Positions 9,611 through 42,572 of a DNA stretch of 64,000 bases are shown here, in pieces (positions within the stretch are counted from its first letter, which is position 1; each line of letters begins with the position of its first letter). This DNA is from Escherichia phage vB_EcoM_EC001: sequence record MN445185.1; one strand, given 5' to 3'. The notes under the pieces are model-generated. The model was not told the DNA's origin and did no database searches. It saw only the letters and a list, made by a program, of their open reading frames with translations. Made by a program: the position numbers and the translations under genes.

Positions 9611-9657
9611 ATAAAAGGTACCTACCTCCCTTCGGGGAGGTAGGGCCTTTATTTTCT
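9611..9657. terminator. Bidirectional intrinsic terminator (end of minus-strand operon and of 9033..9581)
   Basis: CCTACCTCCC-TTCG-GGGAGGTAGG hairpin flanked by A-run and T-run. Confidence 0.7.
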
Positions 9658-14004: not shown

Positions 14005-14211
14005 TTATCGATTCCCCGCTCCACGGCTACAGCTTCCGCTGCAGGACCAGCTACACCCACCATTACAATTATAGTGAGAAAGCGGTAAGCCAGCCAGGTT
14101 ATTTGTGGTCGACACGGTGCCCTGGTTAGCGATATAGTTGTTTGCCTGTGCGGTTGTAATGTAACCTTCTGCCGTAACGAGACGGTTTCGAATAGTCTTG
14201 AGACTGATCAC
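14005..14211 (-). CDS. Cys-rich small protein, short paralog (precursor-peptide-like)
   Basis: 68 aa. N-terminal MISLKTIRNRL... resembles the other two; core HYNCNGGCSWSCSGSC. Confidence 0.55.
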   Translation of the reverse strand: MISLKTIRNRLVTAEGYITTAQANNYIANQGTVSTTNNLAGLPLSHYNCNGGCSWSCSGSCSRGAGNR

Positions 14212-14226
14212 ATAAGCCTCCGTCAG

Positions 14227-14631
14227 TTAGGAGTTAGGACCTGAACAACCACCAGAGCACGCACCTGAGCAGTTTGCGGAGCAGGATTTACCACAACCCC
14301 CAGAACAGCTGCCTGTGCACGTGCCGCTACAACCACCAGAGCACGAAGAGCTACAGCCCGTGCAGCTGCTGCTACAGCCCGATACACAGTTTGCGGAACA
14401 AGTCGACCCACAACCACCCGTAGCAGACCCAGTACACCCGCCAGAACAACTCGAGCAACTAAAAGAGCATGTGCCACCACAGTCATAGTGCGAACGGCCT
14501 TGACCTGCGAACAAGTCGGCGTTATTCGTAGCTTTATTGCGAATGTAGTTTTGCACATTCGTGGTGTTCTTTAAAGCGTTTGCATCGATCGTGTTTAATC
14601 GGTTATTCAGTTCTTTTAATCCAATTGCCAT
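14227..14631 (-). CDS. Cys/Ser/Gly-rich protein (precursor-peptide-like, about 20 Cys at C-x3-C periodicity)
   Basis: 134 aa. Conserved N-terminal segment MAIGLKELNNRL...; core DCGGTCSFSCSSCSGGC...CSANCSGACSGGCSG. Confidence 0.65.
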   Translation of the reverse strand: MAIGLKELNNRLNTIDANALKNTTNVQNYIRNKATNNADLFAGQGRSHYDCGGTCSFSCSSCSGGCTGSATGGCGSTCSANCVSGCSSSCTGCSSSCSGGCSGTCTGSCSGGCGKSCSANCSGACSGGCSGPNS

Positions 14632-14641
14632 TTAATCCCCC

Positions 14642-15034
14642 TTAGCGACCTGAACAGCCACCGGAGCAGGCTCCGGAACAATTGGAAGAACAAGAGCCCC
14701 CGCAACCACCTGTGCAGTTACCGGTACAGCTACTACTGCAACCACCAGAACAACCAGAGCAACCAGAACAGTTACCGCCACACGTCGAAGAACAGCTACC
14801 GATACAAGAAGCAGAACAGCTTCCTGAACAGCTCGAACAGCCATGCGAGCAACCGTTAGAGCACGTCCAAGAACATGTCCCGCCGCAATCTAGCTGTGCT
14901 TTCGTCCAACCCCCAAATCGGTCTGCCGCATTATGGGCTTTAGAGGCCACTTGCGCGTCGACGCGGGGGCCTGTCGCCATGTTAGCTTCGACTATCTGGA
15001 CGCGGTTTCTGACGTCTTTAATAGATATCGCCAT
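14642..15034 (-). CDS. Cys/Ser/Gly-rich protein (precursor-peptide-like), paralog of 14227..14631
   Basis: 130 aa. MAISIKDVRNRV... N-terminus; core DCGGTCSWTCSNGCSHGC...CSSNCSGACSGGCSG. RBS AAGGAA upstream. Confidence 0.65.
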   Translation of the reverse strand: MAISIKDVRNRVQIVEANMATGPRVDAQVASKAHNAADRFGGWTKAQLDCGGTCSWTCSNGCSHGCSSCSGSCSASCIGSCSSTCGGNCSGCSGCSGGCSSSCTGNCTGGCGGSCSSNCSGACSGGCSGR

Positions 15035-15040
15035 TACGCT

Positions 15041-15090
15041 TCCTTAAAAAGTAGAACGAGCGGACTATGTCCATAAACATAGTCCGGCTC
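15041..15090 (-). terminator. Hairpin (possible partial terminator/attenuator) between tail-fibre gene and Cys-rich genes
   Basis: CGGACTATG...CATAGTCCG 9-bp stem (15061-15069, 15078-15086); a short T-run follows on the minus strand and overlaps the RBS of 14642..15034. Confidence 0.35.
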
Positions 15091-15099
15091 GTAAACAAG

Positions 15100-16302
15100 T
15101 TACTTAGTACCCGCTTCAGCTTGAACATCGTCGCGCGAGGTGAGGTTGTTGTTGACGTGAACAGCAGCCTGCACAACACCGCCATACTGTTTATGGAGGT
15201 AATTCGGGTGTGGGTTATCCGCAGCCGCATGGTTCGCCAGATTCTGGTTTGCCTGCGAAATTGCGTTGGTGTTGTTTACAACCTGAGTTTTAAGACTGTT
15301 GATTTGTCCTTGCAGGTTATCAATTTGCTGTTGGAAGTCTTTGCCCTGATTCTCAAGATCCGTGACGCGCTGATTTGTTTTATTCAGTGCAGACTGAAGA
15401 TCGTTAACCATCTTCTGTAATTGCAACACCAGAGAATTAAGGTTAGCTAATGCTAACGACATTTTCTGGTAATTTTGAGCAACCACGTTAAGCTGGTCGT
15501 TCCACGCGGCTAACGAAGCCACAATTGCATCGATGCGTTGCCCCAACGCTGTGTCTGCTGCTCTTAAGTCGCCGATATCTTTGATAGTGGCGTCAATGGC
15601 AGTCTGTACACTTTGAATCAGGGCACGAATCTCCGTCTCCGTCAGGCCATTAACCTGATGAATGTCGAGATTGTGTACGTTACCTTCGGCGTTGATGTGG
15701 GTATTTAAGGCGTCGAGGAAGTCGTTTTTCAGACCACCCAGAATACCTTTAATTTCTTCCAGCTGTACTGCAGAGCCGGAGTTAATCGCATCTTTAATCC
15801 CCGCGAGTACGGTAATGATATACTCAAAACCGTAGATATCGCCAAGGTCTTTATACGTCGGGGCGGATGGGAACGTATCGGGTACGTTTCGAAGATCCTT
15901 GAAGTCCACCACGCGGTCTTCAATTTTCAACGACGCAATCGCTTGTCGGATGCCTTCGACGTTCGCGGACTGAAAACCACCAACGACTTGCGCAGAGACT
16001 TCGATATCAGTAGGAATGGCCGAGTTAGTTACCACCACACCCATGACCACTTCGCGGTTCTTGGTCATTTTCTGATATGCAGTATGTGCAAAAATCAGTT
16101 CGTAGTCTGTACCACGTTTGTACGGGTAGACACCTGGTTTATTCGCAGCCGCCAAGCGGAAGGTATCCGCGTAGAAAGCTCCGTCAGGAAATGCAAAAGC
16201 CCGGTTAACTTTACCAGAACCTAACGTAATACGCCGCGTAACGGCGTTCGACGTTAATGTCCCGGTAAGGTCGAGCGGGTACTGATAAATGATTTCGGCC
16301 AT
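15100..16302 (-). CDS. Tail-fibre-like protein with coiled-coil region
   Basis: Start at MAEIIYQYPLDL with AAGGAG upstream (track start 16338 is a 12-codon extension). N-terminal RGTDYEL domain shared with the three large proteins; heptad-like Q/L/N-rich segment. Confidence 0.6.
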   Translation of the reverse strand: MAEIIYQYPLDLTGTLTSNAVTRRITLGSGKVNRAFAFPDGAFYADTFRLAAANKPGVYPYKRGTDYELIFAHTAYQKMTKNREVVMGVVVTNSAIPTDIEVSAQVVGGFQSANVEGIRQAIASLKIEDRVVDFKDLRNVPDTFPSAPTYKDLGDIYGFEYIITVLAGIKDAINSGSAVQLEEIKGILGGLKNDFLDALNTHINAEGNVHNLDIHQVNGLTETEIRALIQSVQTAIDATIKDIGDLRAADTALGQRIDAIVASLAAWNDQLNVVAQNYQKMSLALANLNSLVLQLQKMVNDLQSALNKTNQRVTDLENQGKDFQQQIDNLQGQINSLKTQVVNNTNAISQANQNLANHAAADNPHPNYLHKQYGGVVQAAVHVNNNLTSRDDVQAEAGTK

Positions 16303-16349
16303 TGCCAAACTCCTTTGATTGGGGCTTCCTTGCCCCATAGCGCTATCTG

Positions 16350-19300
16350 TTAGGTACGGAACATAAGATTGACCTGGATAATATCAGGCTGTTGCCATCC
16401 TCTCTCGTTCACCCAATCGTGCGCAATCGTTAACGTAAGATCATCGCCATCCCACGCCACGATCGGTGGTGGGAATAAACCCTGAGCGCCCGTGGTAACA
16501 ACCGGAATTGCACCCGCCACATCCACAAACGTGTAGCTACGGCTGTTCAAAACAACTGGTGTGCCGTAGGTCTCTCCCCCCAATGGTAAGATTTGAATCT
16601 TACTATCCGAAAGATCGGTGGTGATTGGTAGTCCCCCCGCGTCCGTGAAAAGCCAAGAGCAAATATGCTGGTTGGCCATCTCAAGCGCTGGGGAACTCAA
16701 CACAGCAGCGAAAGTAAACGTACATGGCACGCCTGCGGGCAGAGAATGCTGTTTGTGATACACGGTATGTGGTGTCGGCATTAACACTTCTGGATTTTCA
16801 TCAATGTTAACATCCTTACCTTCCGCCTCGACGTTGTAGAGAAATCTATCTACCGTATCCCATGGGGCGATGTTGACATTAAAGGTCGTTTCTACTCCCG
16901 GTGTACCTGGGACGACGAATTTACTTTGTATCACCACTATCATCATTCCTGAGGTCGGAGAGAAAGCAGGCGTAGGGATACCCACCCACTCCATTCCCAA
17001 CGATGCCGCTTCACCGTTCTCATCGGCCGTTACCGTCGCAATTGTTGTAGGATGTTTCCAAAACGCCCCCGACTTGTTTGCCTGAGTAAACGCCGGCAAA
17101 GTTTTCAAGCCTTCGAAACGTTTGGAGACCATCGGTTTACCGCGACGCTGTGCGTCAGATACGGTATAAAGCAACTGACTATCCAGATAGCCTTTCGTAG
17201 CATCGATCGACAAAGGACCCATCGCTTCTTTACGCAATGGTGCCAGTCTGCCCGTTGCCGCATCCCTTCCCACTTCCACATCATGCTTATTCTCAACCGC
17301 CGCATGTTCCAACAGTTGTTTCACCGCACCCAATCGCTTAGCATGTTCGACGTTAGTCTCGACGACTCGCGACGAGCCCGTTTTAACATACCCGATATAG
17401 AGTTCCGTTTCAGTGTCTGGATGTTGAACCACGTCCATTACGTACTTCGGTGTACCATTTTCTACCTTGGCGTGCAGGTAGAATGTCCGGTTCTGATGGT
17501 TTGTTGGAAATGCTGCGCTGAGGTCAATATACCACGTAGGCAGCTTATAAGTGCTCGAGCCGAAACGCAGGTCAACTTCCTCAGTCACATATACCAGCCA
17601 ACCTTCAGCTGTTTCCACACCAGCAATGACGACCGATTCAGTCGGGCCACTAAAATTAGGAGCCGCGACAAAATCTCTCGACGACGTTGCGATACCACCA
17701 CAATAGACGTAGTCGAGAGATGAGTTGTGTAACATCACTTGATCGCGATGTGCCAGATAAGCTGGACTGACTGGAGTGTGTGACGGTGCCATACGTCCAA
17801 CGCCGTGTGCGGCAGAAGAACGCGTCCAAGTACCATTAGACAGCGTAAGACCAACAGCGTAGTTAAGCGCACCCAAGTCGCCAATCAGGCGCAAGGTTAA
17901 CGTGTGTGGAAGATACAACCCGAACTGCGTACCATCTACCGACACCATGGTAGGTTGTCCCGGCCGGCGTGTTTTTCCTCCCGTTATCTCTCCCAACGTA
18001 GCATAGTTCAAGCCATAGTCGAGGTTGTTATAGAAGTCAAACAATGCCAATATCGCTGCCGGGAATGTTACCTGCCCGTTGCTGATTGTTGGTTTCAGTG
18101 TAAAGTAGTAGATATCCAACACGTTAACGTTGTTCACAGTACGCGTACATGCTACTTGTGCTAACGTGAGCGGTGTGGCCGTACCAATGCCGATGAACCA
18201 AACAGAGAACAGTGCCTTTCCTGCGTTATTTGCGGCAAGGATATATTCCGAAGCATAACCATTCGCAGCGCCTGCCGGTGCTCCGTCGATGATCATCTGC
18301 TTCATCTTATTCCATTCAGCTTGTGACAGCGTCAACCGATCGGCATGAATCGTGAAAGTGCCAGAAACGTTGTGGTAAGGGAATGTTTCTGGCCCTGTGC
18401 AATACCAGCCGTTTAACTCTGTACCAGGCGACGCCGGTGTAACAATGTGGCACATCTGCGACAGATTCTCGTACGTGGTAGAATCCACTACACGACGATT
18501 GTTAGTTGGTCCATACCCCACTTTACCTGAGTAAGTGGTGTTCGGATCAAACTCAACCTCAATTGCCAAACGGGAACGTGGCTGTGACAACCAGATAAGT
18601 CTGGAATTCGCTCCCAGAGTCAGTGGATACGCCATACCCAGCTCGTAGATAGAACCACGACCTTGGTTTAACGTTACCGCACTAAACCTTCTGGCAGTGA
18701 AGTTGTAGTCGCACGACAGGTACTCGTACCAACTCACACCGTCGTCTAACGTGGTAATCGTGACAATTGGCATTAGGTCACGATCGCTGGCATGTCCTTG
18801 CGAAACGATATATTTGTCTTGCGATGTTGCAAAGGTTTGGTTATTAGCTTGACCTTCGCCCCACTTCCGGCTCGGAATCCCAATCTCAGCACCACCGTTA
18901 TAACGAACCGCGGTAAGATCAGCCACAATAGGGAATCGATCAGCCCCTTCCAGCGTTACCGTCATTGAACTGCAATCAACAACAAAGCTTGACACCCATT
19001 GTTTAAAGCTAATCGTCTGCCCTGTGCTGGAGGCAAACCAGACTGTTGGCGTTAAACCAACACGAAAGTTCAGCCCATCAACACCAATCGCGTGATTACA
19101 CTCAGGACCATGTACAAAGTTAGTTGCATTGTTCCACTTCGCTAACGCGTCTGCGTAGATCTGTGTAACTGGTGCTGGGAGCGCATCGGAAGGTGCACGT
19201 TTCTGTCCCTGTCGCAGATAAACGTTTTCACCCGACGTTAATATCCCGCCTGTTAACGCATCCGCCACAAACGTGTTGCTACCACCCGGATTAAGTTCGT

Positions 19301-21533
19301 TGAGTGCGATGCTACGCATACTCACGAAATAGTTACCGGAGGTAAGCACCGTACGCAACAGGTAGACACGTTCATTACAAACAATCAAATCGTCTGTAGA
19401 AGCGTTTGGAGCCCACGGTGCTGTCGTTACTGTGCCCGCACCATTACCGTTCTTGTAATCACCCAACACCACTTTAACAACACGATGATGTTTTGCATGG
19501 TCAATCGTCCCATCGAAGATGACCAGGTAGTACGCACCGTCACTGCCTAAGCAGATCATTGCATCGGTACCGGTAATCACAATAGCAACCAGATTCACCC
19601 CAGGATACGCCGACATTCCAGCGGGTCGATAGCGTACGGACGTCTGCTGCATATTTTCCAGCGTATTGCTTGGCGACACATCAGCATAGGCGTAATAGAT
19701 AGCCCAGTCACCTGGTGGATTCCCGTTAGAACCGTTACGGAGCGAGTAAACCTTACCAGACTCGTAACGCGCCAAACCTTTCTGCCAGGTTTGGTTTTTG
19801 GTGTACCCTTCGTAGTTCCCCTGGACAGGTATAGGCAAGAAGTTATTGTTGCCGTACGATGATCCGCCAACGGTCCATGCTGGCAACAACGTAGCAATCT
19901 TGTCGTTCAGTGTACCGATTTTCTGTTCGAGCAAGAAACCCTGGCGGGCAGTAACCATCTTATCTGTTGTGGTGTCAATAGCGTCCCACAGTTTAGCCAA
20001 ACCTGTAACAGACGTGGATGCGTACGGCACGTTATCGAGATCGGCAATGGTGTGGGTGTGCGTTGAGAGTGCCTTGCCTGATAGCACGGTGCGCAACGCA
20101 TTAGTAACCGGTTTCTCCAGCGGTCCGGTATTGTTCATCTTCTCAATACCGAAATCCGACGCGGTTAAGGTTAAATGCATTTGCCCGTTTTCGTCTAACA
20201 CAAACCCTTTACCATTGACCGTATACGTGTCGTCCACATATCCGTCGAGTTTGTTCTTCAAGTCAGTAACAGCTTTTTGGGAAATCGCTGTGGACGCCGC
20301 GGCGGACGCCGAAAGGTTAGTAATCGCAAACAAGCCCTGCACAGTTGTGGTTGCTGCAGGCAGCTCCGCATTCATGTAAACTTTGTTTGTTTCTTTACCA
20401 GAGCCGTAAATCTTCAACGTGTCGCTGGATTTGAAGTAGGCGTTTGCTGGAAGTATCTTCACCGAGGTCAAGTACATCTTAACCATATCCGGTGTAACGA
20501 GATACACGCCGTTATACACAGGTGCAAGCACACCCGCATCATAATCGCCCCATTTGTCACCTGCTTTACCCGAGTGAACCCAAAGCGTGTTCAGACCAGC
20601 GCTGAACTCCGTAGCGATACCCGGTTCGTTGTTATCCTGATCAGCTTTTAATACCAGCGGTTTTGTCGAGGTGATAATGAACTTCTCACCTTTCATGCTG
20701 ATAACGTGACCGGATGTTGTTTGGAACGTAATCGCGTCGTTATTCAGAACACGCATACGGCCCAGTAAATCACCCAGGGTATTATCCAGAAGCATGTCAA
20801 CGTGTTTTTGTTGGATGCCGCTGGTAGACATTAACGTCACTAACTCTGCCAGGGTACGTCCAAACGCCTTGGTCGCATCTACGGCCTTGCCGAGTACCGG
20901 GAGTGCGCCAATGTCACCGCAGGTGTAACCATGTGCATTTTTAATCAGATGGTGTTGATACATTTCGTCATCAAACACCTGCTTACCGTTCTGATAAATC
21001 AAATCGGTAACTTCGGCAAATGCCTCATCCAGTTCGTGGGCACGTTCTAAAATGCCCAGTCGGATATCTTCCAGCGCCTTTACAATCTCATCGCGAAGGA
21101 TGGCTTCTTCGAGATCTTTTGGCGGATCGATTGGTGAAATGATCGGCGGATATTTCATCAACTCAGACCAATCGCAGTTACGCGGGTCTTTCATATCCGT
21201 CTTAACCAGATACTTGCCGATTTCAGAAGCAGGGATGCGATACTGTCGACCAACCGACAACAACTCGTATTCTAGCTCTGTGGCGTTCAGCAGCATTATG
21301 CTGCCGTATATTGCATCGTTCTCAGCCTCGGCTAATTCCTGGAAGTAATGTCCTAAGAAATAATCAAGACCTTCTATTAACTTGCGTTTGGTTCCGGTTG
21401 TTTTATCGGTAACGGTTAACGTTAACCCGATGCGATAGAACGGTGCTTCGACGGGAATGACCGTCGAATAACGGTTCGGGTAAGTAGCGGTACTGAGGGT
21501 ACCGTTAAACTGCGCCGCATCTTCTCTCGGCAT
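16350..21533 (-). CDS. Very large virion protein (tail fibre/tailspike-like), about 1727 aa
   Basis: Start at MPREDAAQ with AGGAG upstream; N-terminal domain paralogous to those of 21629..25759, 25772..29485 and 15100..16302. Confidence 0.7.
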   Translation of the reverse strand: MPREDAAQFNGTLSTATYPNRYSTVIPVEAPFYRIGLTLTVTDKTTGTKRKLIEGLDYFLGHYFQELAEAENDAIYGSIMLLNATELEYELLSVGRQYRIPASEIGKYLVKTDMKDPRNCDWSELMKYPPIISPIDPPKDLEEAILRDEIVKALEDIRLGILERAHELDEAFAEVTDLIYQNGKQVFDDEMYQHHLIKNAHGYTCGDIGALPVLGKAVDATKAFGRTLAELVTLMSTSGIQQKHVDMLLDNTLGDLLGRMRVLNNDAITFQTTSGHVISMKGEKFIITSTKPLVLKADQDNNEPGIATEFSAGLNTLWVHSGKAGDKWGDYDAGVLAPVYNGVYLVTPDMVKMYLTSVKILPANAYFKSSDTLKIYGSGKETNKVYMNAELPAATTTVQGLFAITNLSASAAASTAISQKAVTDLKNKLDGYVDDTYTVNGKGFVLDENGQMHLTLTASDFGIEKMNNTGPLEKPVTNALRTVLSGKALSTHTHTIADLDNVPYASTSVTGLAKLWDAIDTTTDKMVTARQGFLLEQKIGTLNDKIATLLPAWTVGGSSYGNNNFLPIPVQGNYEGYTKNQTWQKGLARYESGKVYSLRNGSNGNPPGDWAIYYAYADVSPSNTLENMQQTSVRYRPAGMSAYPGVNLVAIVITGTDAMICLGSDGAYYLVIFDGTIDHAKHHRVVKVVLGDYKNGNGAGTVTTAPWAPNASTDDLIVCNERVYLLRTVLTSGNYFVSMRSIALNELNPGGSNTFVADALTGGILTSGENVYLRQGQKRAPSDALPAPVTQIYADALAKWNNATNFVHGPECNHAIGVDGLNFRVGLTPTVWFASSTGQTISFKQWVSSFVVDCSSMTVTLEGADRFPIVADLTAVRYNGGAEIGIPSRKWGEGQANNQTFATSQDKYIVSQGHASDRDLMPIVTITTLDDGVSWYEYLSCDYNFTARRFSAVTLNQGRGSIYELGMAYPLTLGANSRLIWLSQPRSRLAIEVEFDPNTTYSGKVGYGPTNNRRVVDSTTYENLSQMCHIVTPASPGTELNGWYCTGPETFPYHNVSGTFTIHADRLTLSQAEWNKMKQMIIDGAPAGAANGYASEYILAANNAGKALFSVWFIGIGTATPLTLAQVACTRTVNNVNVLDIYYFTLKPTISNGQVTFPAAILALFDFYNNLDYGLNYATLGEITGGKTRRPGQPTMVSVDGTQFGLYLPHTLTLRLIGDLGALNYAVGLTLSNGTWTRSSAAHGVGRMAPSHTPVSPAYLAHRDQVMLHNSSLDYVYCGGIATSSRDFVAAPNFSGPTESVVIAGVETAEGWLVYVTEEVDLRFGSSTYKLPTWYIDLSAAFPTNHQNRTFYLHAKVENGTPKYVMDVVQHPDTETELYIGYVKTGSSRVVETNVEHAKRLGAVKQLLEHAAVENKHDVEVGRDAATGRLAPLRKEAMGPLSIDATKGYLDSQLLYTVSDAQRRGKPMVSKRFEGLKTLPAFTQANKSGAFWKHPTTIATVTADENGEAASLGMEWVGIPTPAFSPTSGMMIVVIQSKFVVPGTPGVETTFNVNIAPWDTVDRFLYNVEAEGKDVNIDENPEVLMPTPHTVYHKQHSLPAGVPCTFTFAAVLSSPALEMANQHICSWLFTDAGGLPITTDLSDSKIQILPLGGETYGTPVVLNSRSYTFVDVAGAIPVVTTGAQGLFPPPIVAWDGDDLTLTIAHDWVNERGWQQPDIIQVNLMFRT

Positions 21534-21567
21534 TGCAAACACTCCTAATCTGTAATAAAACGGAGAC

Positions 21568-21625
21568 CGCCCTCCCAATAACGGAAGGGCGGTTTACCTA
21601 CGGACTACCCGCCCGTAGGCAGTCC
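21568..21625 (-). terminator. Hairpin region between two large minus-strand genes (possible attenuator)
   Basis: ACCGCCCT...AGGGCGGT stem (21568-21575, 21589-21596) followed on the minus strand by CTCCGTTTTATTAC. Confidence 0.4.
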
Positions 21626-21628
21626 GTC

Positions 21629-24600
21629 CTAAGAGGCCCACTCACCCGAGTTGTTGCCTTCGTTTCTACGTTCAGTATCCAACGTTTGTAAAATCCAATC
21701 CCATGTCCTGGTGGGGATGTGGAATGGATTACGCTTCTCAATGAGAATCGTCTCGCCACCCGTGCGAAGTTCCACCGGTGTCGTTTCAGTAATCACGAAC
21801 ATCGGATTACCACTACTACCCACACCGTTAATAGTGAACTTCGCTTGTAGCGGCGGCACAGAACCTTCCGGAGGCACGAACACGATGTGAATTGGCTGCA
21901 TCGGTTTCGTGCGGGCAAGAGTCCCAGATATCTGAACAGCTGTTGTCGATGCACTGAAAGGTATAACATTACCCGGAATTTTCTCACTACCCACGACGAT
22001 ATATCCAGGGTAGTTAGAGAGCATTGTCCCATTTACCGACACAAAACGCTCAGTTTGAGTTGGGCGATAAGCCCGCATAAAGCCGTACTTCCATTCACCA
22101 CCGTTAGACGTATAGTCTGCAGGAGCCGACTCAAGTAGCGGAGCACCACGTTTCTGCAGCCCTTTATAAAACGGCGCTGGGAGTTTACCGTTCGGTGCAA
22201 GTTCCGGATAACCCTCACTTGCAGCAGACATCGTGATGTATTCCGTAACCGGGTGATCAACGTTATCTCCAAATGACGCAAAAGGTACCGTTGTTACTGT
22301 CATCTCCTCGTGGCCGGAAGACTGTCTATCTGGTGTCCTTTCAATATACGACTCAAACAGTGAACGTAAATAATGGAAACGATTTATATCCACATCTGAG
22401 ATGATCGGCTGCATCAAACCGTGGTTAATAGTCACGTTGTCTCCAGTTTCAATACCGGAAACGTGGATGGCTAGCGCCCCACCTTTAAAGTAATCGATCG
22501 CATCAAACGGAATGTCGTATTCCATTTCGTAAACCTGCACCAGCGGATTGGCTATCAACTTAGAAACCATTGAGATGCGCAGTACCTGCGTATCAACAAT
22601 GTATCGATAACGTACAAGCCAACGATCTCCAAGCGGCGCAAGCTCACTATCGGTATGAACCGAAAGAAAATCTAAACACTCGGTAGATTGGCTCGTCAGG
22701 TTTTTAATTACCCTCGGATTTTCAAGCACCTTATTTGTAACACTGCCCTGCGTGGTCGAGATGATGCCTCCAGTTGCTTGGTTATAAGGAGACGTGATGA
22801 AGCCACAATTCAATTCTGGACGATTGCCACTCCATCTCAGTACCCTAGTCTTGCTTTTATCATCTGCAGACGGGGCCATGAAGTTTAATGTGATATCGCG
22901 ATCGCGAACAGTTTGCGCTTCCGACAAATCAACATCGACCACCACAGAACCTTCAAACGTCGCCATCCCTTTTTCTTTCGGGTTGCTTGGTGTAAACCAG
23001 CAGTACGGTGATGCGCTTTCTGTGGAGACAACCGCTCCAACAAACACTAGGCTTGAAATGGTGCTATCAAATTTATAATCGAATAACCCTCGGTCTAATC
23101 GAATATAGTGGTTACCAGAAACTGGACTATTAGGGTACGCATAAAGCCACTGTTTAGGCAACGGATCGACTTTGTTTAGCGGTAACATTTTTGGGTTATC
23201 CGTCAACGACCAGTCGGCATTACTCACTCCGTGTGCCAGACGTGTTTCGAAGTGCCGTTTAAGTTCGGACGCCATGCCAAAATCAAACGTCGTTTCAAAC
23301 TCGTAAGTCGTACCTGCAACCAATCCCGTCTCTGGTACATCAATATGTCCGATATAGCCGCGTTCCAAGTTAATACCTTCCGTGTCCACAATAGGTTCGG
23401 CGCGCGAATATAACGCATCGGTTATCATGTTCACATAGAGGTAATGCCTTAAACCATTCGGCGTCTTAACAAACTCCTGCAGGCGGGCAACTTTGGTGTT
23501 TTTATCCGAGGCCCCAACCGCAAAGTCACCGTCGTAAATTGTGAAACGAATTGCGGCTGCTTTAGCGCTATCGTTACACTCGGCACGGAATGCTAAGCAG
23601 TGTTGCTTCCACCCCTCCTTGACAGTCGCCTCCAGATACCCCGCTTCTGTAATACCCGCACCGATAATTTCACCGTCCAGATAAACAGAAACAGCACCAC
23701 CGCCACGAACCCAAATCCGCAGCTTACCAGAGTCGCAACGAACCCACGTTTTCGCCAAGAGGTTAACGACTGACAAATCACCCATTCCGGTTGTCGTTAA
23801 ACCAATCTGCGCACCGTAGTTCGTTTCCGGGACGGCAACCTCAAACCCACTAAAATCAATACCGGCACCGGTATTAATTACCGCGTTCTGCCACGTTCTT
23901 TCCATACGGTTATCTGGAGAGAACCACTGGAACATCGGTGTGGTTTGCAGGTCTATCGAACCAGATACCGTCCCCTCTTTACGTGCGCCATTTAACAGAT
24001 AGAAATAATTCAAATCCGTTATGGCGAGTGTGGTACGTGCTGACCCCACAGTCCAAGTCTTACCACGCACAGCGGCAAAATCGGTCACGGAATCCTCTTT
24101 CGCGTTTGCTAGCGCAGCTGCAACTACGTCTAAACGTTTTGACAAATCGTTCAGAACGTTCGGGGTAACGCCGCGATTACCCGACAAGCCGTTTAGGTTG
24201 GTAGAATATCGAGCGATACCGGGAACTGTTTGAGAAGCCGTTGGGATCTGTAAATCGGCGAAGTTGTGATGATGGCCTTTATCGCTAAGACCGGTAACTG
24301 CTTCTGCCAACGCATCAGAAAGTGGTTTATCGACGTCAGCTGTGTTATCAGCCAAGTCCAGACCCAAATCCTTTTTCGTTAGCGTTCGGCTACCAGTGTC
24401 CATCGGCTGGTTATTCAGCAGCGTTGTCTTCCTGACGTACGAAGACAGATCACCCTCGTACGGTAAGAGCGAAGCTGGGGTGGCTGCTTGTCCTTTGACT
24501 ACATCGCTCGGCTTATCAGTCAGCGTCACAACGCCGGGTTCAGAGGTCGTGGCGGGTTTGGCTGTAACCTTCCCGGTGACGGGATCGGCTTTTGACCCTT

Positions 24601-25759
24601 TGCCCGTGAAAGTAATACCGTTCACCCCGCTAATGTACAGTTTGTTGTCATCCGGGTCAACGGTACCGCCGCCGGTACCAGGGTCTTGTTGATAGCCCAT
24701 GAGAGCGGTGGTGGTCAGCAACGTTGTTCCGTTAAGTGTCAGCTTATCCATCCCCAAGGCACTGCCGGTTGACTCAATACGTAACGTATTGATGCCTGCT
24801 TTCCACTCCATAAACCGGACGGTTCCAGTAGTGTCAGCATACCCACACGCCAGCACGACAGAGCCATTAGATTTAAGAGTGAATGCCTCAGCAGAGAACA
24901 CAATTTCGGATTCGCCAGCAGGAGAACGGAACAGGGCACGAGTACCAGATATCGTCGCGTTAAACACCCCTTTGGATTCTTTCGATACCCATTTAGAAAT
25001 GTACTTGTCGATATCCGATTGTTGCAGGCCCAGTGCACGGACCTCGCTGGTTAATTGACGCAACGTCTTTCCATACGCCAGGAAAGTATCTGGCGTTTTC
25101 AGGTTGACAGGATGCGCCCCGGCCTGCGCCGCGGTAGTCCCATGAGGGTTAGTGGACGCAATGTGTCCGGGGTAGTTAAATGTGGCGATTTCAGTTCCTA
25201 AGCCCAGAACCGTATCTTTCAGCTCGGTAAGCTTTTCACGAATCTGCTCGTTGGCCGCCCCGGCATCTAACTCCACATCATGCACTGCAGAGGCAACATA
25301 CTTTTTATTCAGCATGTCTGACCAAGCTACCGCTGCGGGGGTGGCTGGGTACAGGGAAGGTCGATTACCTAAAAGCAGCCAATCTGCAGCCGTTGGATTG
25401 TTGAGAGCCTTAATTAACTCATCCAACATCTCAATCAGACCACTGTAAAACGTACCCCCGAGCATCTGGCCTTCAAAGACCACTGCACCACGCAGTTTAG
25501 GGTTAATAAGATGCACCCCACAGAACACCGGGGTCGTCACCGAGTCGTCCAACGGCGTTAAAGCATACTCCAGCTCATAGTCCGTCCCGCGGGTAAGCGG
25601 TATGGTCGAGCCGGCGAGCATTACCACCAATCCTTCGAAAAATGGGCGATGATCTAGCATCACCACCCGATCGTTAGGATTGTCGGAGTCGATGATACGT
25701 TCCTCGATGAAGTGACACTCGGGATTTACACCCCGAGGATCGTAAGGATACGTTTTCAT
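21629..25759 (-). CDS. Very large virion protein (tail fibre/tailspike-like), 1376 aa
   Basis: RBS AAGGAG; N-terminal LTRGTDYELEYALTP shared domain. Confidence 0.7.
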   Translation of the reverse strand: MKTYPYDPRGVNPECHFIEERIIDSDNPNDRVVMLDHRPFFEGLVVMLAGSTIPLTRGTDYELEYALTPLDDSVTTPVFCGVHLINPKLRGAVVFEGQMLGGTFYSGLIEMLDELIKALNNPTAADWLLLGNRPSLYPATPAAVAWSDMLNKKYVASAVHDVELDAGAANEQIREKLTELKDTVLGLGTEIATFNYPGHIASTNPHGTTAAQAGAHPVNLKTPDTFLAYGKTLRQLTSEVRALGLQQSDIDKYISKWVSKESKGVFNATISGTRALFRSPAGESEIVFSAEAFTLKSNGSVVLACGYADTTGTVRFMEWKAGINTLRIESTGSALGMDKLTLNGTTLLTTTALMGYQQDPGTGGGTVDPDDNKLYISGVNGITFTGKGSKADPVTGKVTAKPATTSEPGVVTLTDKPSDVVKGQAATPASLLPYEGDLSSYVRKTTLLNNQPMDTGSRTLTKKDLGLDLADNTADVDKPLSDALAEAVTGLSDKGHHHNFADLQIPTASQTVPGIARYSTNLNGLSGNRGVTPNVLNDLSKRLDVVAAALANAKEDSVTDFAAVRGKTWTVGSARTTLAITDLNYFYLLNGARKEGTVSGSIDLQTTPMFQWFSPDNRMERTWQNAVINTGAGIDFSGFEVAVPETNYGAQIGLTTTGMGDLSVVNLLAKTWVRCDSGKLRIWVRGGGAVSVYLDGEIIGAGITEAGYLEATVKEGWKQHCLAFRAECNDSAKAAAIRFTIYDGDFAVGASDKNTKVARLQEFVKTPNGLRHYLYVNMITDALYSRAEPIVDTEGINLERGYIGHIDVPETGLVAGTTYEFETTFDFGMASELKRHFETRLAHGVSNADWSLTDNPKMLPLNKVDPLPKQWLYAYPNSPVSGNHYIRLDRGLFDYKFDSTISSLVFVGAVVSTESASPYCWFTPSNPKEKGMATFEGSVVVDVDLSEAQTVRDRDITLNFMAPSADDKSKTRVLRWSGNRPELNCGFITSPYNQATGGIISTTQGSVTNKVLENPRVIKNLTSQSTECLDFLSVHTDSELAPLGDRWLVRYRYIVDTQVLRISMVSKLIANPLVQVYEMEYDIPFDAIDYFKGGALAIHVSGIETGDNVTINHGLMQPIISDVDINRFHYLRSLFESYIERTPDRQSSGHEEMTVTTVPFASFGDNVDHPVTEYITMSAASEGYPELAPNGKLPAPFYKGLQKRGAPLLESAPADYTSNGGEWKYGFMRAYRPTQTERFVSVNGTMLSNYPGYIVVGSEKIPGNVIPFSASTTAVQISGTLARTKPMQPIHIVFVPPEGSVPPLQAKFTINGVGSSGNPMFVITETTPVELRTGGETILIEKRNPFHIPTRTWDWILQTLDTERRNEGNNSGEWAS

Positions 25760-25771: not shown

Positions 25772-28700
25772 TTAATCACGAATAATAAGTGTTCGACCTG
25801 ACGTGTTTTGCGGATTGAACGTCATCATCTTGGATGGGTGTGTCGCCAGCGGAATTTTACCTGTATCCACTGGTCGGAACGAACTGTATGAATAGTTGCA
25901 CATCGCGCTGTTCATCTCATTAATCGTTGAACCTGCTTCCACCACGCCAGTAAAGAATCTTGCGCGGTTTAAGCCGGAATAGTTAATCGCATAGTCAAGG
26001 AACGTGGCGTAATAACGATTCTTTATCGGCATCGTGTTCAGGTTAGCGTAAGTCAAACGCGCTTCTGTGTCGGAACTAAACAAACCACCCGCGCCGTGAT
26101 AAATCGGCGTACTCGGATCGGTAATCAGTTTCGTCAAGTCGATATAATCAGGACGGAGACGGGTAGACAAATCCTCAGTCCACGACTCGCCGGTCGACTG
26201 CAAGGTGTATCTCAGCGTCTTTGTTGTCGCGGTTAGCGTCAGCTCAAAGTTGATCGTTTTGGAATCGATGTTAATCGTTCCCTCGAACGAAATACCGTCC
26301 GCTGTTCGCGTGTGGCTGAAACGCACCGACGGATTAAGTGCCGTCCAGTCATGGCCGGAACCAGTAACACCATTCAAGCCAATAACAACCTGCGCAGCAC
26401 GTCCGTAGTTAACCGCGATTCCCGCATACGTGCTCACGCCGCCTGGAGTGGTAATACGCCCTGCGGTGCGTGCGACGAGTACAGAAATACGGTGCATGAA
26501 CGTGGCCGAGTGATGGCAACACCCAATTACCGTTTCTAGCACACTGTCCGCTGTTGCGGTTAAAGGTGTCCACGTTGCGGTAATGCCGTTATTCTGGAAC
26601 ATCGGGAATGTGTTGTGGACAAAACGATAATCGGTTACAGATAAACTGGTTGTTTTAAACGTCCATTTATCAGCAGCCGGATCGTAGTCCGCTTTCAACA
26701 TAGGCGTATAGCTGCTAGCCTGCGCGTAACGCCAATCAGCATCTATACGTTTTGTACCCGGTGCGCCCGTGGACCACACAGGCCCGCCTGTACCGTAAGT
26801 AAATCCGAATTCAGCTTGCGTCATGCTCCGTCGAATATGGGCGTTATCATCCTCGATATGCTCGCCTAATTCACGAAACTCACCTAAACGCGTCACGTTG
26901 CGGATTTCTACAAAAACCACACCGGTTTCACTGGTGATGATGGAACCTATTTTGGTCATCGTCTCAGTTTCTGCCGTGTTTGGATTTTCGTAGATAATGT
27001 ACTTGCCATCATCGCCCGCCGCGTCAACATACACGCCAAACTCAGCATCTTCGTGCGTCGCTGGGAATAGCTCCGCCAAGTTAAATGTGGAGAGAGGTAC
27101 TTTGTACTCGCGACCAACGAAATAATCGTTCGCTTTAATAGTAACCATCCAGTCGGTGTAAGTGATGCCGTTTTCAATGATATCCGTGCCGGGTAAACCG
27201 TAACGAATAATGTTGATTGAAGCACCAGAGTCGACTGTCTTCGCAACCTTCTCTATCTCTGTGATAGCGTCCGCCTGTCGGATGACCACACCGCCGTCTA
27301 ATGCCAGCGTGGCATCGTCAACCACGGTGCCGAACTGTACTAAACCGAACTCCGTCGTTGTTGCACGCTTAATCCCGAACGCAGCAGAAGTGTGTTTGTG
27401 ACCGACGACTGCATACTTGTCCAGCTCAGCTTGTTGGAGCGGGGAAATCGGCAATTGCACATCTGGGATGTTCTGTACGTTCGATAAGCCGAAGTTAGTT
27501 TTATCGATGTAAATAGAACTCGTCAGTGGCATGTCGTTGATGTACGATTTAACGGCAACCAACTTGCCCGTAAACTGCTGATCCAATTTCTTGATGAGTG
27601 CCGGCGTTGCGGCCAAGTCCTCACGATCACCGAATTCAGTAGCCAACAAACGGACAGCCATCAGGCCAAGGTCGTCGGACTCCGGTGGAACAAAAGTACA
27701 AATGAACGGAACAGACTGAATACCGTTACCGTTAATAGTTACAGTAGCTGTGGATGTTCCGTAAAACAGTCCATCACCACCTGACTCGTTACCCGGCAAA
27801 TACGGCCCGACCGTAGTAGGGTCCAACAGTTTCTTACCGTTGAACTCCAATCCACGGGAATCCGGATAAAGGATGAGTTGGTTAGCACCGCCTTGCCATG
27901 TGATCGGGTTGTTCCCGGCGTTAACGGTTTGCGAATCGCGTCCAATAAAACGGATAACCCTCGGGTCAACCGTGAATTGTGCACCCACGCCTTCAGACTC
28001 ATCGGTACCCACTGCCGACGTTATCGAAGTCAGGCCAGGCTTCATACCGAACGTGCCGTTGATAGACTGTGCAGCCGCCGGTAAACGTAAAAGCTTATTC
28101 GCCAGCGTTGACAGTTTCGGCAACAGATTGTTAACGTAATCTGTCAGCTGCGGTTGCGTTTTTCCGTATACCAGTGTCGCGTCCGAAGCAATACCGTTAT
28201 TCTCCAAAGCACGGATTGCGCCCCACGAATCGCGATGTGGGTTATCCTTGCGCGGCACGTGCGCATGTGCCGGCGCATCACGGTACAGTTTATCGACAAT
28301 CTGGTGATATTTTACCAGCAGCTGGTACACGTCATTGTTAACGTCAGGTGCCGGTGCGCCTGGTAATGAACGAATCTGGACGTAATCGTTCTCACCTGCC
28401 CACCAGTTTAGGTTGACGCCCGATTTAAACTTCAACCATTTTGCGACATCAGTTTTCTGATACCCTGGTGCAAATTCGCTCGGTGGGTTGTCAACGTTAA
28501 AGCTGTAGTTAACGGTTTGCTTACTTGTTTTAACGATAATGTCGTAAACGCCGTTACCTTCGCGTCTGACCACGCTAAGCTCAATATCACCCGCCAACTC
28601 GGTATCGGTCAGGCCAGTCGTCAACGTATAGCTGTAATTAGACGAACCAGAACCAATCGCCGTCGTTAAGGTAAGATAAATCGCGCGTTGCTTCAACTGA

Positions 28701-29485
28701 AGACGCAGGATACTTGTCCCACCGTTTGCGTAACAGAGCATCCAATCGATCAACTCGCCTGGGTTTAACGTTGTTTCCGGTGGAATGCTCGGTAAACGGT
28801 ATTTTACCGCTAACGAATACGCATCGAATGTCGTATTCTGGTAAGATAACGAATAACGACGACGTGACGCGTTATACGTGTAGCCGCCAGTACCGTCGTA
28901 CGTCGCATACTGCTCGGATGTGATAAGCGTGACGCCGGCGCGATATTGAAGGTCTAACGTGTTACGAGCAATCGGGTCAACGCGACTGATCGCTTCACCG
29001 AGCTTAGCACCAACCGCAACAATGGCTTCCATCAACTCAGATTCGCCACGCCAGTTTTCCCAATCGAACTTAATATCGACCGGTGGGAAATATAAATCCC
29101 CAATGACATTATCCCATTGGCAGTCTACGGGATAGCGATCTTTATTCGCTTCTCGTTCTGCGGCGATCATTTCTGCAGTGGCTTCACCGATACCAATTGC
29201 ATGGTAATCGAGTGTAAAGCCACTCTGATATTTCGGGTTGGTAATCCACACGCCGCCGTGACAAACATGGCCAGTGCGTGCCATGCCCGTAACGTACGCA
29301 TGGGTGATGACGTAATCATCACCTAATGTTAATTTCTTGCCGCCACTCTTGACCACCAGGGATGTGGTATAAAAGGGGGCGTGTGCGGGGAACAGCATCC
29401 GGTACTTAGTACCGATCGGCGTTACCGCTTCACCGGTCTGCATATTCCCCGGTTCTTGATAGTGCGGGTCAGGGACGACAGCCAT
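25772..29485 (-). CDS. Very large virion protein (tail fibre/tailspike-like), 1237 aa
   Basis: RBS AAGGAG; first gene of the minus-strand operon; shared N-terminal domain (PFYTTSLVV...LGDDYVITHAY). Confidence 0.7.
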   Translation of the reverse strand: MAVVPDPHYQEPGNMQTGEAVTPIGTKYRMLFPAHAPFYTTSLVVKSGGKKLTLGDDYVITHAYVTGMARTGHVCHGGVWITNPKYQSGFTLDYHAIGIGEATAEMIAAEREANKDRYPVDCQWDNVIGDLYFPPVDIKFDWENWRGESELMEAIVAVGAKLGEAISRVDPIARNTLDLQYRAGVTLITSEQYATYDGTGGYTYNASRRRYSLSYQNTTFDAYSLAVKYRLPSIPPETTLNPGELIDWMLCYANGGTSILRLQLKQRAIYLTLTTAIGSGSSNYSYTLTTGLTDTELAGDIELSVVRREGNGVYDIIVKTSKQTVNYSFNVDNPPSEFAPGYQKTDVAKWLKFKSGVNLNWWAGENDYVQIRSLPGAPAPDVNNDVYQLLVKYHQIVDKLYRDAPAHAHVPRKDNPHRDSWGAIRALENNGIASDATLVYGKTQPQLTDYVNNLLPKLSTLANKLLRLPAAAQSINGTFGMKPGLTSITSAVGTDESEGVGAQFTVDPRVIRFIGRDSQTVNAGNNPITWQGGANQLILYPDSRGLEFNGKKLLDPTTVGPYLPGNESGGDGLFYGTSTATVTINGNGIQSVPFICTFVPPESDDLGLMAVRLLATEFGDREDLAATPALIKKLDQQFTGKLVAVKSYINDMPLTSSIYIDKTNFGLSNVQNIPDVQLPISPLQQAELDKYAVVGHKHTSAAFGIKRATTTEFGLVQFGTVVDDATLALDGGVVIRQADAITEIEKVAKTVDSGASINIIRYGLPGTDIIENGITYTDWMVTIKANDYFVGREYKVPLSTFNLAELFPATHEDAEFGVYVDAAGDDGKYIIYENPNTAETETMTKIGSIITSETGVVFVEIRNVTRLGEFRELGEHIEDDNAHIRRSMTQAEFGFTYGTGGPVWSTGAPGTKRIDADWRYAQASSYTPMLKADYDPAADKWTFKTTSLSVTDYRFVHNTFPMFQNNGITATWTPLTATADSVLETVIGCCHHSATFMHRISVLVARTAGRITTPGGVSTYAGIAVNYGRAAQVVIGLNGVTGSGHDWTALNPSVRFSHTRTADGISFEGTINIDSKTINFELTLTATTKTLRYTLQSTGESWTEDLSTRLRPDYIDLTKLITDPSTPIYHGAGGLFSSDTEARLTYANLNTMPIKNRYYATFLDYAINYSGLNRARFFTGVVEAGSTINEMNSAMCNYSYSSFRPVDTGKIPLATHPSKMMTFNPQNTSGRTLIIRD

Positions 29486-29552
29486 TTTACACTCCTTTTC
29501 TCTGAGGGCGTCGAGTTCATACTATGACCCGAATCCTTAGAGGAAACAGCCA

Positions 29553-39377: not shown

Positions 39378-39388
39378 CTCTCCTCTCT

Positions 39389-39421
39389 GGAACCCTTCGG
39401 GGTTCCATTTCTTCTTTTTTA
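39389..39421 (+). terminator. Intrinsic terminator
   Basis: GGAACCC-TTCG-GGGTTCC hairpin followed by ATTTCTTCTTTTTT. Confidence 0.7.
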
Positions 39422-39473
39422 CGCATGACCTTTTGGATATGAACGACTAATACTTTCTCATTAGAAGGCAAAC

Positions 39474-41984: not shown

Positions 41985-42165
41985 AGGTTGGCGCTTATGG
42001 GCTTGGTGGGGTTTTCAGTTCCTTCAGTTTGTTGTGATGGTACTGTACCTCTCCTTTTGTGCAACCGTAGTGGTTATCGCTGCGGTCGTTTATTTAGCTG
42101 CTGCTCTTAAAGAACGTCTGTTCGACACGCGTTGTGAGTGGCGAGATATAGGAGAACGGACATGA
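41974..42165 (+). CDS. Small hydrophobic membrane protein
   Basis: 63 aa; hydrophobic stretch FQFLQFVVMVLYLSFCATVVVIAAVVYLAAAL. Confidence 0.4.
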   Translation: MHHKGWRLWAWWGFQFLQFVVMVLYLSFCATVVVIAAVVYLAAALKERLFDTRCEWRDIGERT

Positions 42166-42266
42166 TTGAAGGTATCGTATTAACCGGTATTGCACTGTGG
42201 TTGATTCGTGGTGCCTGGGGTTGGATTATCCGCACGAAAGGATGGGCATTCCATGGCAAGACGTAA
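42162..42266 (+). CDS. Small hydrophobic peptide (34 aa)
   Basis: ATG preceded by GGAGAA; MIEGIVLTGIALWLIRGAWGWII...; below the ORF-track length cutoff, my own translation. Confidence 0.35.
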   Translation: MIEGIVLTGIALWLIRGAWGWIIRTKGWAFHGKT

Positions 42267-42444
42267 ACCTGGTCGTTTAAAGTTTTGGGCAGTTGTGGTA
42301 ATGCACACTGTGGTGCTACTCGGTATTTTCATGTCTCGCGCTACGCCTGCCTTTTGGGGCTTAGTTGTTTTGGTGTTCTTAGAAGGGGTTTACTTCGGTA
42401 ATCTGTGGAGCAAGCCCCCCGCGTTTAAGGGACCCGGCTTATGA
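42253..42444 (+). CDS. Small hydrophobic membrane protein
   Basis: Start at internal ATG (MARRKPGRLKFWAVVVMHTVVLLGIFM...); one or two TM-like segments. Confidence 0.4.
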   Translation: MARRKPGRLKFWAVVVMHTVVLLGIFMSRATPAFWGLVVLVFLEGVYFGNLWSKPPAFKGPGL

Positions 42445-42572
42445 CAGTCGTGAATAGTGTCAACGCAGCCATGATTGCAACAGGTGCGTATGATGGTGCC
42501 ACCTGGACAGACCTTGGCATTACGATTATCATCTGTGCAATCGGAGCATTTCTGGCATCATGGTTATTTTAG
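42441..42572 (+). CDS. Small hydrophobic peptide (43 aa)
   Basis: ATGA start/stop overlap with the previous gene; ...LGITIIICAIGAFLASWLF; my own translation. Confidence 0.35.
   Translation: MTVVNSVNAAMIATGAYDGATWTDLGITIIICAIGAFLASWLF

What the first reader, a model, noticed from the sequence alone, without database searches (positions are those of the whole stretch)
15041..15090. Hairpin separating the tail-fibre genes from the Cys-rich genes
A 9-bp stem (CGGACTATG / CATAGTCCG) lies between the stop of the coiled-coil fibre gene and the RBS of the first Cys-rich gene. It may act as a partial terminator or processing site that sets the expression level of the Cys-rich/rSAM module relative to the fibre genes.
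Basis: seen in the sequence. Interest (0 to 1): 0.3.

Follow-up and report, generated by a model that had tools for sequence, protein, structure and literature searches.

The report
Terminator hairpin with nested promoter motif
A conserved RNA stem-loop after a giant Salmonella phage's tail-fibre gene most likely ends that gene's transcript, and its loop always carries TATG, the start signal of the phage's own RNA polymerase, so it probably also restarts transcription for the next operon: a neat but fairly ordinary gene-boundary element.

Summary
The hairpin is real and larger than described. It has 16 bp with one bulged C, at window 15056-15092, on the minus (sense) strand between the fibre gene (SPN3US gp167 homologue) and the first Cys-rich gene. 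The window is an SPN3US-like, phiKZ-related jumbo phage.

The stem-loop sits at the same place in all 22 related loci examined (12 distinct sequences, four genera plus uncultivated viral contigs). Stem sequences differ but pairing is kept, and G·U pairs occur almost only on the sense strand (17 versus 1). Selection therefore acts on the RNA.

In most lineages a T-rich "TTAT" tail follows directly, as in mapped phiKZ terminators. In the window's own lineage the tail is weaker.

TATG(+1=G) is the late-promoter motif of the phiKZ non-virion RNA polymerase. In this window TATG is enriched 25-40 nt upstream of start codons. It is the best-conserved tetramer at 20-45 nt across four genera.

Best reading: a leaky terminator with a late start site nested in its loop. 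No transcript data exist. Interest is modest.

The parts
15056..15092 (-). Complete stem-loop: a lower stem of 6 bp (15092-15087 with 15061-15056), a bulged C (15086), an upper stem of 10 bp (15085-15076 with 15071-15062) and a 4-nt loop.
   Evidence: Folded (-23.2 kcal/mol, z -7.4). Coordinates. The same position and structure occur in 12 distinct relatives.
15072..15075 (-). Loop apex TATG on the sense (non-template) strand. The predicted late transcription start is G(+1) at 15072, giving a 38-nt leader.
   Evidence: Invariant in all 12 distinct sequences while the positions before and after it vary. It matches the phiKZ nvRNAP late motif T(-3)ATG(+1). The distance to the ATG lies within the 27-38 nt mode of other TATGs in the window.
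15046..15055 (-). T-rich tail UCUACUUUUU after the stem (7 U in 10, with a U5 run at 15050-15046).
   Evidence: Sequence. Orthologous tails in relatives are TTTTTTATTC, CCTTATTTATT, TTTTTTTATTG, CTTTTTTTATTTT and ACTTTTTATTAAC.
15041..15045 (-). Shine-Dalgarno AAGGA of the first Cys-rich gene. It is not paired in the predicted fold.
   Evidence: Invariant in alignment A3.
15032..15034 (-). ATG start codon of the first Cys-rich gene (14642..15034).
   Evidence: The protein belongs to phrog_6085.
15100..15102 (-). TAA stop codon of the fibre gene (homologue of SPN3US gp167, 'virion structural protein 20').

Best explanation
The element marks the boundary between two late transcription units of an SPN3US-like (phiKZ-related, nucleus-forming) jumbo phage. 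It probably does two jobs.

1. Terminator. In transcripts coming from the fibre genes, the sense RNA folds into a 16-bp stem-loop followed by a U-rich tail. This acts as an intrinsic, probably leaky, terminator and 3'-end-protecting hairpin for the phage's own RNA polymerase.

2. Promoter. The loop apex is TATG, the late-promoter motif of the non-virion RNA polymerase, whose G is the start site. Transcripts for the Cys-rich/radical-SAM operon (15034 down to 9662, ending at the bidirectional terminator 9621-9644) would begin at G 15072. An RNA started there contains only the 3' arm, cannot form the hairpin, and so escapes this terminator.

What is shown: the structure, its conservation, RNA-level selection on the stem, and invariance of the loop TATG.
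What is inferred: termination (my estimate about 0.7), initiation at the loop (about 0.55), and both together (about 0.5).
For: Identity of the phage: 99.2% identical to Salmonella phage JN03 and 96.8% to SPN3US. SPN3US encodes nvRNAP subunits.

Structure:
- -23.2 kcal/mol, z -7.4.
- Present in 22 related loci, 12 distinct sequences, from Seoulvirus, Erskinevirus, Machinavirus, Derbicusvirus and uncultivated viral contigs.
- Every sequence folds (9-17 bp, z -4.4 to -7.4) although the stems differ.
- Between the window and SPAsTU, three consecutive pairs are changed on both sides.
- 17 G·U pairs lie on the sense strand against 1 on the antisense. The sense hairpin is more stable in 10 of 12 sequences.

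Terminator:
- The tails in Erskinevirus, Machinavirus and most of the uncultivated contigs (all but L012 and L020) are T-rich with TTAT directly after the stem.
- This matches the canonical terminators of this window and the mapped phiKZ terminator motif ...GGBYTTATK.

Promoter:
- The loop TATG is invariant while the -4 position (T/A/C) and the +2 position (G/C) vary. This is the same tolerance pattern as the P119L mutagenesis.
- Loops of neighbouring orthologous terminators vary freely: UUAU/UCCG/GAGA, GUU/GUUUCG/UCAC/GAU, UUCG/CAUGU.
- TATG is 3.0-fold enriched in sense upstream intergenic DNA. At 25-40 nt from start codons there are 8 cases against 2.4 expected, p = 0.003.
- It ranks first of 256 tetramers for presence 20-45 nt upstream of the start in all four genera. 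The three such sites include this loop and the back-to-back CATA-N-TATG at 29518-29526.
Against: - No transcript 5' or 3' ends are available for any phage of this clade.
- In the window's own lineage the U5 run starts 6 nt after the stem and TTAT is absent. Derbicusvirus has no T tail. Termination may therefore be weak or lineage-dependent.
- The upper stem is AU-rich, unlike the C-rich canonical terminators. The phiKZ terminator consensus finds nothing anywhere in the window, so it does not discriminate here.
- In phiKZ at least seven terminator hairpins have TATG in the loop, yet none is among the listed start sites.
- The four-genus test rests on only 14 genes.
Confidence: 0.5

Rival explanations
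1. Terminator or attenuator only. The hairpin stops or attenuates fibre transcripts, and the Cys-rich/rSAM module is expressed by read-through. The loop TATG is conserved for a reason unrelated to initiation, such as loop geometry or an RNA-binding factor.
For: - RNA-level selection on the stem and terminator-like tails.
- The canonical terminator between gp169 and gp168 (21567-21592) has no TATG downstream of it, so read-through of terminators must already occur in this gene row.
- phiKZ terminators with TATG in the loop are not among the listed start sites.
Against: - It gives no reason why exactly the four promoter nucleotides are invariant across at least 8 lineages, while loops of neighbouring orthologous terminators drift.
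- TATG is the top conserved upstream tetramer in this clade.
- Derbicusvirus keeps the hairpin and TATG but has no T tail.
Confidence: 0.27
2. RNA stability or processing element. The hairpin is a barrier to 3'->5' exonucleases, or a cleavage site (RNase III in the stem, RNase E in the AU-rich tail). It would separate the fibre and Cys-rich parts of one long transcript after export from the phage nucleus.
For: - The sense-strand RNA helix is conserved.
- An AU-rich single-stranded tail follows it.
- A second small conserved hairpin without a T tail lies between gp168 and gp167 at 16321-16336, suggesting that intercistronic RNA structures are common here.
Against: - 16 bp with a bulge is short for RNase III, on the usual requirement of about two helical turns (my own knowledge, not tested here).
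- It does not explain the invariant TATG or the TTAT tails.
- There is no Rfam match.
Confidence: 0.1
3. DNA-level element. The inverted repeat acts as DNA, either as a binding site for a dimeric regulator or as an extruded hairpin or cruciform that presents TATG single-stranded to the polymerase.
For: - In phiKZ, TATG is read on the separated non-template strand by the beta-like subunit. What supplies the remaining promoter specificity is unknown.
- N4 virion RNAP offers a precedent for hairpin promoters (my own knowledge).
Against: - The arm sequences are not conserved, which argues against a sequence-specific dimer.
- The strand asymmetry of G·U pairs points to RNA.
- Mapped phiKZ late starts are not enriched for hairpins around TATG: 14% have stems of at least 5 bp, against 17% of all TATGs.
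- A P78/P119 hybrid with a foreign upstream half still works.
- TATG-in-loop hairpins are not enriched in the window.
Confidence: 0.05
4. Translational control. The hairpin modulates ribosome access to the first Cys-rich gene.
For: The hairpin ends only 10 nt upstream of the Shine-Dalgarno sequence.
Against: - The SD and the start codon stay unpaired in the predicted fold.
- The spacing between hairpin and SD varies among relatives, from 4 to 17 nt.
- If transcription starts in the loop, the hairpin is absent from that mRNA.
Confidence: 0.04

Closest known systems
Intrinsic terminators of phiKZ-like jumbo phages, mapped by ONT-cappable-seq in phiKZ and 201phi2-1 (PMC10914365, PMC11512511)
   Same: A stable stem-loop in the sense RNA just after a stop codon, followed by a T-rich tail. 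In most relatives the tail contains the TTAT signature.
   Different: The upper stem is AU-rich rather than a C-rich CCYCCCC...GGGRRGG stem. The loop is TATG rather than the usual UUCG-type loop of this window. The window's own tail lacks TTAT and is set back 6 nt. The published consensus has no match anywhere in the window.
phiKZ nvRNAP late promoters (5'-TATG-3', with G as +1; P119L; PMC4666361, PMC12809450)
   Same: The same four nucleotides on the non-template strand upstream of a virion-associated gene cluster. All four are invariant while the flanking positions are free, mirroring the P119L mutagenesis. The leader length is typical for this window.
   Different: No start site has been mapped. 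The motif lies in the loop of a strong hairpin, which is not a feature of mapped phiKZ late starts. The downstream determinants are unknown in both systems.
Terminator-then-promoter junctions in phiKZ (for example P049, P054, P075 and P104 in the preprint's supplementary promoter table)
   Same: A terminator hairpin and a TATG start packed into one short intergenic spacer between late genes. The window has the same layout at 39378-39473.
   Different: In phiKZ the TATG lies 8-30 nt downstream of the hairpin. Here it is inside the loop, so the two signals overlap physically.
Hairpin promoters of coliphage N4 virion RNA polymerase
   Same: A promoter-specifying sequence displayed in a stem-loop.
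   Different: N4 uses a single-subunit polymerase, 5-7 bp stems, a 3-nt loop and conserved stem bases, and the hairpin acts as DNA (my own knowledge; not tested). Here the selection signature is on RNA.

Membership tests
Intrinsic (factor-independent) terminator, phiKZ-like type | A stable stem-loop in the sense transcript downstream of a stop codon | tested here: met
   16 bp, -23.2 kcal/mol, z -7.4, starting 7 nt after the TAA stop.
Intrinsic (factor-independent) terminator, phiKZ-like type | A U-rich tract or TTAT motif directly 3' of the stem | tested here: inconclusive
   In the window the tail is UCUACUUUUU, with 7 U in 10, no TTAT, and a U5 run 6 nt from the stem. The feature is met in Erskinevirus, Machinavirus and most of the uncultivated contigs. 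L012 and L020 have a T-rich tail without TTAT. Derbicusvirus has no T tail.
Intrinsic (factor-independent) terminator, phiKZ-like type | Match to the published phiKZ consensus BCCYCCCCHWWDGGGRRGGBYTTATKYYGT | tested here: not met
   No match in the window with up to 3 mismatches. The window's evident canonical terminators also fail to match, so this test does not discriminate in this clade.
Intrinsic (factor-independent) terminator, phiKZ-like type | Transcript 3' ends map at the tail and read-through is reduced | not testable with these tools
   The literature searches found no transcriptome for SPN3US-like phages.
phiKZ-type nvRNAP late promoter | 5'-TATG-3' on the non-template strand, with all four bases required and neighbours tolerant | tested here: met
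   TATG at 15075->15072(-). It is invariant in 12 distinct relatives, while -4 is T/A/C and +2 is G/C.
phiKZ-type nvRNAP late promoter | The phage encodes the non-virion multisubunit RNA polymerase | not tested
   Taken from the literature: SPN3US has nvRNAP subunit genes. They were not looked for in this window.
phiKZ-type nvRNAP late promoter | Transcription starts at the G of TATG | not testable with these tools
   This needs 5'-end mapping or in vitro transcription.
phiKZ-type nvRNAP late promoter | Placed upstream of late or virion-associated genes at a leader length typical for the phage | tested here: met
   The leader is 38 nt. Seven other TATGs in the window lie 27-35 nt from start codons. 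The position is conserved in four genera.
RNase III processing hairpin | About 20 bp or more of near-continuous double-stranded RNA | tested here: not met
   16 bp with a bulge in the window and 9-17 bp in relatives.
Any curated RNA family (Rfam 15) | Score at or above the family's gathering threshold | tested here: not met
   The best hit is 17.4 bits against a threshold of 33, at E = 0.76.

The most novel reading that the evidence does not exclude
The stem-loop could be part of promoter recognition itself. Extrusion of the non-template strand as a hairpin, or easy melting at the loop, would present TATG single-stranded to the beta-lobe pocket of the non-virion RNA polymerase. At this site that would supply the 'missing' specificity determinant that the 4-nt motif alone cannot give. 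The element would then be a structure-specified late promoter that doubles as a terminator for upstream transcripts.
Probability: 0.06. Interest if true: 0.7.

Novelty: new variant of a known kind. Interest (0 to 1): 0.35.

Why it matters
Nothing is known experimentally about promoters or terminators of SPN3US-like phages, which serve as a genetic model for giant phages.

This element, together with the conserved CATA-N-TATG at 29518-29526, gives comparative evidence for two points. First, the TATG late start signal defined in Pseudomonas phage phiKZ is also used in the enterobacterial branch. Second, there is now a precise, testable start site (G 15072, minus strand) for the unannotated Cys-rich/radical-SAM operon next to the tail fibres.

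A start site nested in the loop of the preceding terminator is a compact way to make a terminator act only on upstream transcripts. If confirmed, it would be a useful part for phage engineering and a natural test case for how little sequence nvRNAP needs. It does not overturn any current view.

Tried and rejected
- **Rfam scan of 14900-15250:** only sub-threshold noise.
- **Published phiKZ terminator consensus as a pattern:** no hit anywhere in the window, so it is uninformative here.
- **MAFFT plus RNAalifold on the 12 intergenic sequences:** the two arms fall out of register because the bulges differ, and only 8 pairs are recovered. I replaced this with per-sequence folds anchored on the loop.
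- **Hairpins as a general feature of TATG promoters:** rejected. TATG-in-loop hairpins are no more frequent than for other tetramers in the window. At 42 mapped phiKZ late starts, the fraction with stems of at least 5 bp is 14%, against 17% for all TATGs.
- **Short ORF starting at the loop AUG:** rejected. Its frame relative to the main ATG changes between lineages, with 40, 37 and 42 nt from the loop AUG to the main ATG (my reading of the sequences).
- **Bidirectional terminator:** rejected. The + strand tail is AAACAAGTTACTT, and the + strand hairpin is weaker in 10 of 12 relatives.
- **More distant relative:** Vibrio phage pVa-21 has the fibre homologue but neither the Cys-rich module nor the element.
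- **Published supplementary tables:** those of the two transcriptome papers are not held. I used the preprint's tables instead. Only start sites P008-P126 (phiKZ 1-250 kb) were used.
- **Sigma-70 promoter scan:** fewer hits than in shuffles and none at the site. It is also irrelevant for a phage that uses its own polymerases.

Full report
**What the window is.** The 4 kb around the finding is 99.2% identical to Salmonella phage JN03 and 96.8% to SPN3US. The window is therefore part of an SPN3US-like (Seoulvirus) jumbo phage related to phiKZ. All genes near the finding are on the minus strand:
- three large tail or fibre genes (25772-29485, 21629-25759, 16350-21533);
- the coiled-coil fibre gene 15100-16302 (SPN3US gp167, "virion structural protein 20");
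- three paralogous Cys-rich ORFs (14642-15034, 14227-14631, 14005-14211);
- a 295-aa protein, two radical SAM enzymes and two further proteins, down to 9662.

**The observation.** On the sense RNA the helix is longer: ACGAGC-C-GGACUAUGUU[UAUG]GACAUAGUCC-GCUCGU. That is 16 bp with one bulged C, at 15092->15056. It is followed by UCUACUUUUU, then AAGGA (the Shine-Dalgarno sequence), then the ATG at 15034. The hairpin alone folds at -23.2 kcal/mol (z -7.4, 0 of 300 shuffles as good). In 86 nt of context it folds at -25.7 kcal/mol (z -3.2). The terminator scan missed it. I believe this is because of the bulge. After the full stem, the tail has 5 T in the first 8 bases, which is the scan's own criterion.

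**Conservation.** The same gene order occurs in Erskinevirus (phiEaH2, Asesino), Machinavirus (pEa_SNUABM_9, Huxley), Derbicusvirus (EarlPhillipIV), the divergent Seoulvirus members SPAsTU and pEa_SNUABM_29, and several uncultivated viral contigs. The order is fibre, Cys-rich genes, phrog_8030 protein, two rSAM genes.
- In all 22 loci (12 distinct sequences) a stem-loop lies between the fibre stop and the first Cys-rich start.
- Each sequence folds significantly (9-17 bp, z -4.4 to -7.4) although the stem sequences differ.
- Between the window and SPAsTU, three consecutive pairs are changed on both sides: A-U to G-C, C-G to U-A, and U-A to C-G.
- The 12 sense-strand hairpins contain 17 G·U pairs, against 1 on the opposite strand. 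The sense hairpin is the more stable in 10 of 12, by about 5 kcal/mol or more in 8.

The helix is therefore selected as RNA in the sense transcript. It is not selected as a symmetric DNA site.

**Terminator reading.** Canonical intergenic hairpins of this window are GC-rich with UUCG-type loops and tails such as CCTTTTATTT. This is the same general shape as the mapped phiKZ motif ending in YTTATK. 201phi2-1 shares a closely similar motif. At the fibre/Cys-rich junction:
- Erskinevirus, Huxley, L017 and three of the five uncultivated contigs with AGGAGGAAC-type stems (L013, L019, L021) have TTTTTTATT-like tails directly after the stem;
- pEa9 has CCTTATTTATT;
- the other two contigs of that group (L012, L020) have a T-rich tail without TTAT (CTATTTTAATTTT);
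- the window's lineage has the weaker UCUACUUUUU;
- Derbicusvirus has none.

Late transcription in these phages is carried out by the phage's own polymerase inside a phage nucleus. A factor-independent signal is therefore what one expects there (inference from established knowledge). Leakiness is plausible. The canonical terminator after gp169 (21567-21592) has no TATG behind it, so gp168 must be reached by read-through. Termination here remains an inference.

**The loop.** In every lineage the loop apex is TATG on the sense strand. The base before it is T, A or C, and the base after it is G or C. By contrast, loops of orthologous canonical terminators in the same genomes drift: UUAU/UCCG/GAGA after gp169, GUU/GUUUCG/UCAC/GAU after the 29553 gene, and UUCG/CAUGU after the 46355 gene.

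TATG, with G as +1, is the late-promoter motif of the phiKZ non-virion RNA polymerase. All four bases are required, while -4 and +2 are tolerant. The motif is read on the separated non-template strand by the beta-like subunit. SPN3US encodes the same polymerase.

Within the window:
- TATG is 3.0-fold enriched in sense-oriented upstream intergenic DNA. It ranks fourth, after TTTT and the two SD-like tetramers GAGG and AGGA.
- It occurs 8 times at 25-40 nt from start codons against 2.4 expected (p = 0.003).
- Among 14 genes whose starts align in four genera, TATG ranks first of 256 tetramers for being present 20-45 nt upstream in all four.
- The three fully conserved sites are this loop and the two halves of CATA-N-TATG at 29518-29526, between the divergent structural genes. 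A fourth site, before the SMC-like gene at 39474, is kept in three genera.

The loop G (15072) would give a 38-nt leader, within the 27-38 nt mode.

**Model.** Upstream transcripts form the hairpin and partly stop. New transcripts start in the loop, lack the 5' arm, and so cannot form the hairpin. They run through the tightly packed operon to the bidirectional terminator at 9621-9644.

**Evidence against the model.**
- In phiKZ, terminator and TATG start are often adjacent, but the TATG lies downstream of the hairpin (P049, P054, P075, P104).
- At least seven phiKZ terminator hairpins do have TATG in the loop, and none is a listed start.
- Mapped phiKZ late starts are not enriched for hairpins. 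A TATG in a loop is thus not sufficient, and a hairpin is not a general promoter feature.
- A hybrid promoter with a foreign upstream half still works in vitro. This, together with the G·U asymmetry, makes a DNA-hairpin promoter unlikely.

**Verdict.** The most likely description is a leaky phiKZ-type terminator with a late start motif nested in its loop. That is a new variant of known parts, of modest interest, and directly testable by end-mapping RNA-seq.

Noticed in passing
window 14005-15034 (-): There are three paralogous Cys-rich ORFs (130, 134 and 68 aa), with CxxxC-type repeats such as GGCSGSCSGGC, all matching phrog_6085. The SPN3US reference record annotates none of them in this frame; SPN3US_0166 is the overlapping Ala/Val-rich frame. 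They head a module of a phrog_8030 protein, two radical SAM enzymes, a phrog_7988 protein and a DUF4376 protein. The module is conserved in four genera and absent from Vibrio phage pVa-21.
   Followed up: partly
window 29518-29526: CATACTATG is two back-to-back TATG motifs between divergent structural genes. One lies 33 nt and the other 27 nt from its start codon. The CATA-N-TATG motif is invariant in Seoulvirus, Erskinevirus, Machinavirus and Derbicusvirus, with only the central base differing (C, or T in Derbicusvirus). It is probably a pair of divergent late promoters.
   Followed up: yes
window 16321-16336 (-): A small GC hairpin, GGGGC-AAGGAA-GCCCC, lies between gp168 and gp167. Its stem covaries in relatives, its loop looks like a Shine-Dalgarno sequence, and it has no T tail. 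A TATG just upstream of it is present only in Seoulvirus.
   Followed up: partly
window 21567-21629 (-): Two adjacent conserved hairpins lie between gp169 and gp168. The second (21567-21592) is a canonical terminator with the tail CUCCGUUUUAUUA. No TATG follows it, so gp168 seems to depend on read-through.
   Followed up: partly
window 43019-43042: A perfect 10-bp-arm palindrome, CTTAAGTTTACCGGTAAACTTAAG, lies in an intergenic spacer. It has no T tail on either strand and is unlike the phage's terminators.
   Followed up: no
window 43625-43647 (+): A 9-bp hairpin (with G·U pairs) has a loop, TATGA, that contains the start codon of the gene at 43635.
   Followed up: no
window 41985-42685: A 701-nt stretch has no ORF of 80 aa or more in my gene map. 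It holds several internal ATGs and may contain small unannotated genes.
   Followed up: no
phiKZ NC_004629.1 (L026-L030), e.g. 27672, 37431, 40395, 115299, 142935, 166826(-), 167847(-): Many canonical phiKZ terminators carry TATG in the loop, or TTATG in the tail directly after the stem. The terminator signature YTTATK thus overlaps the late-promoter motif. None of these loop positions is a listed start site.
   Followed up: partly
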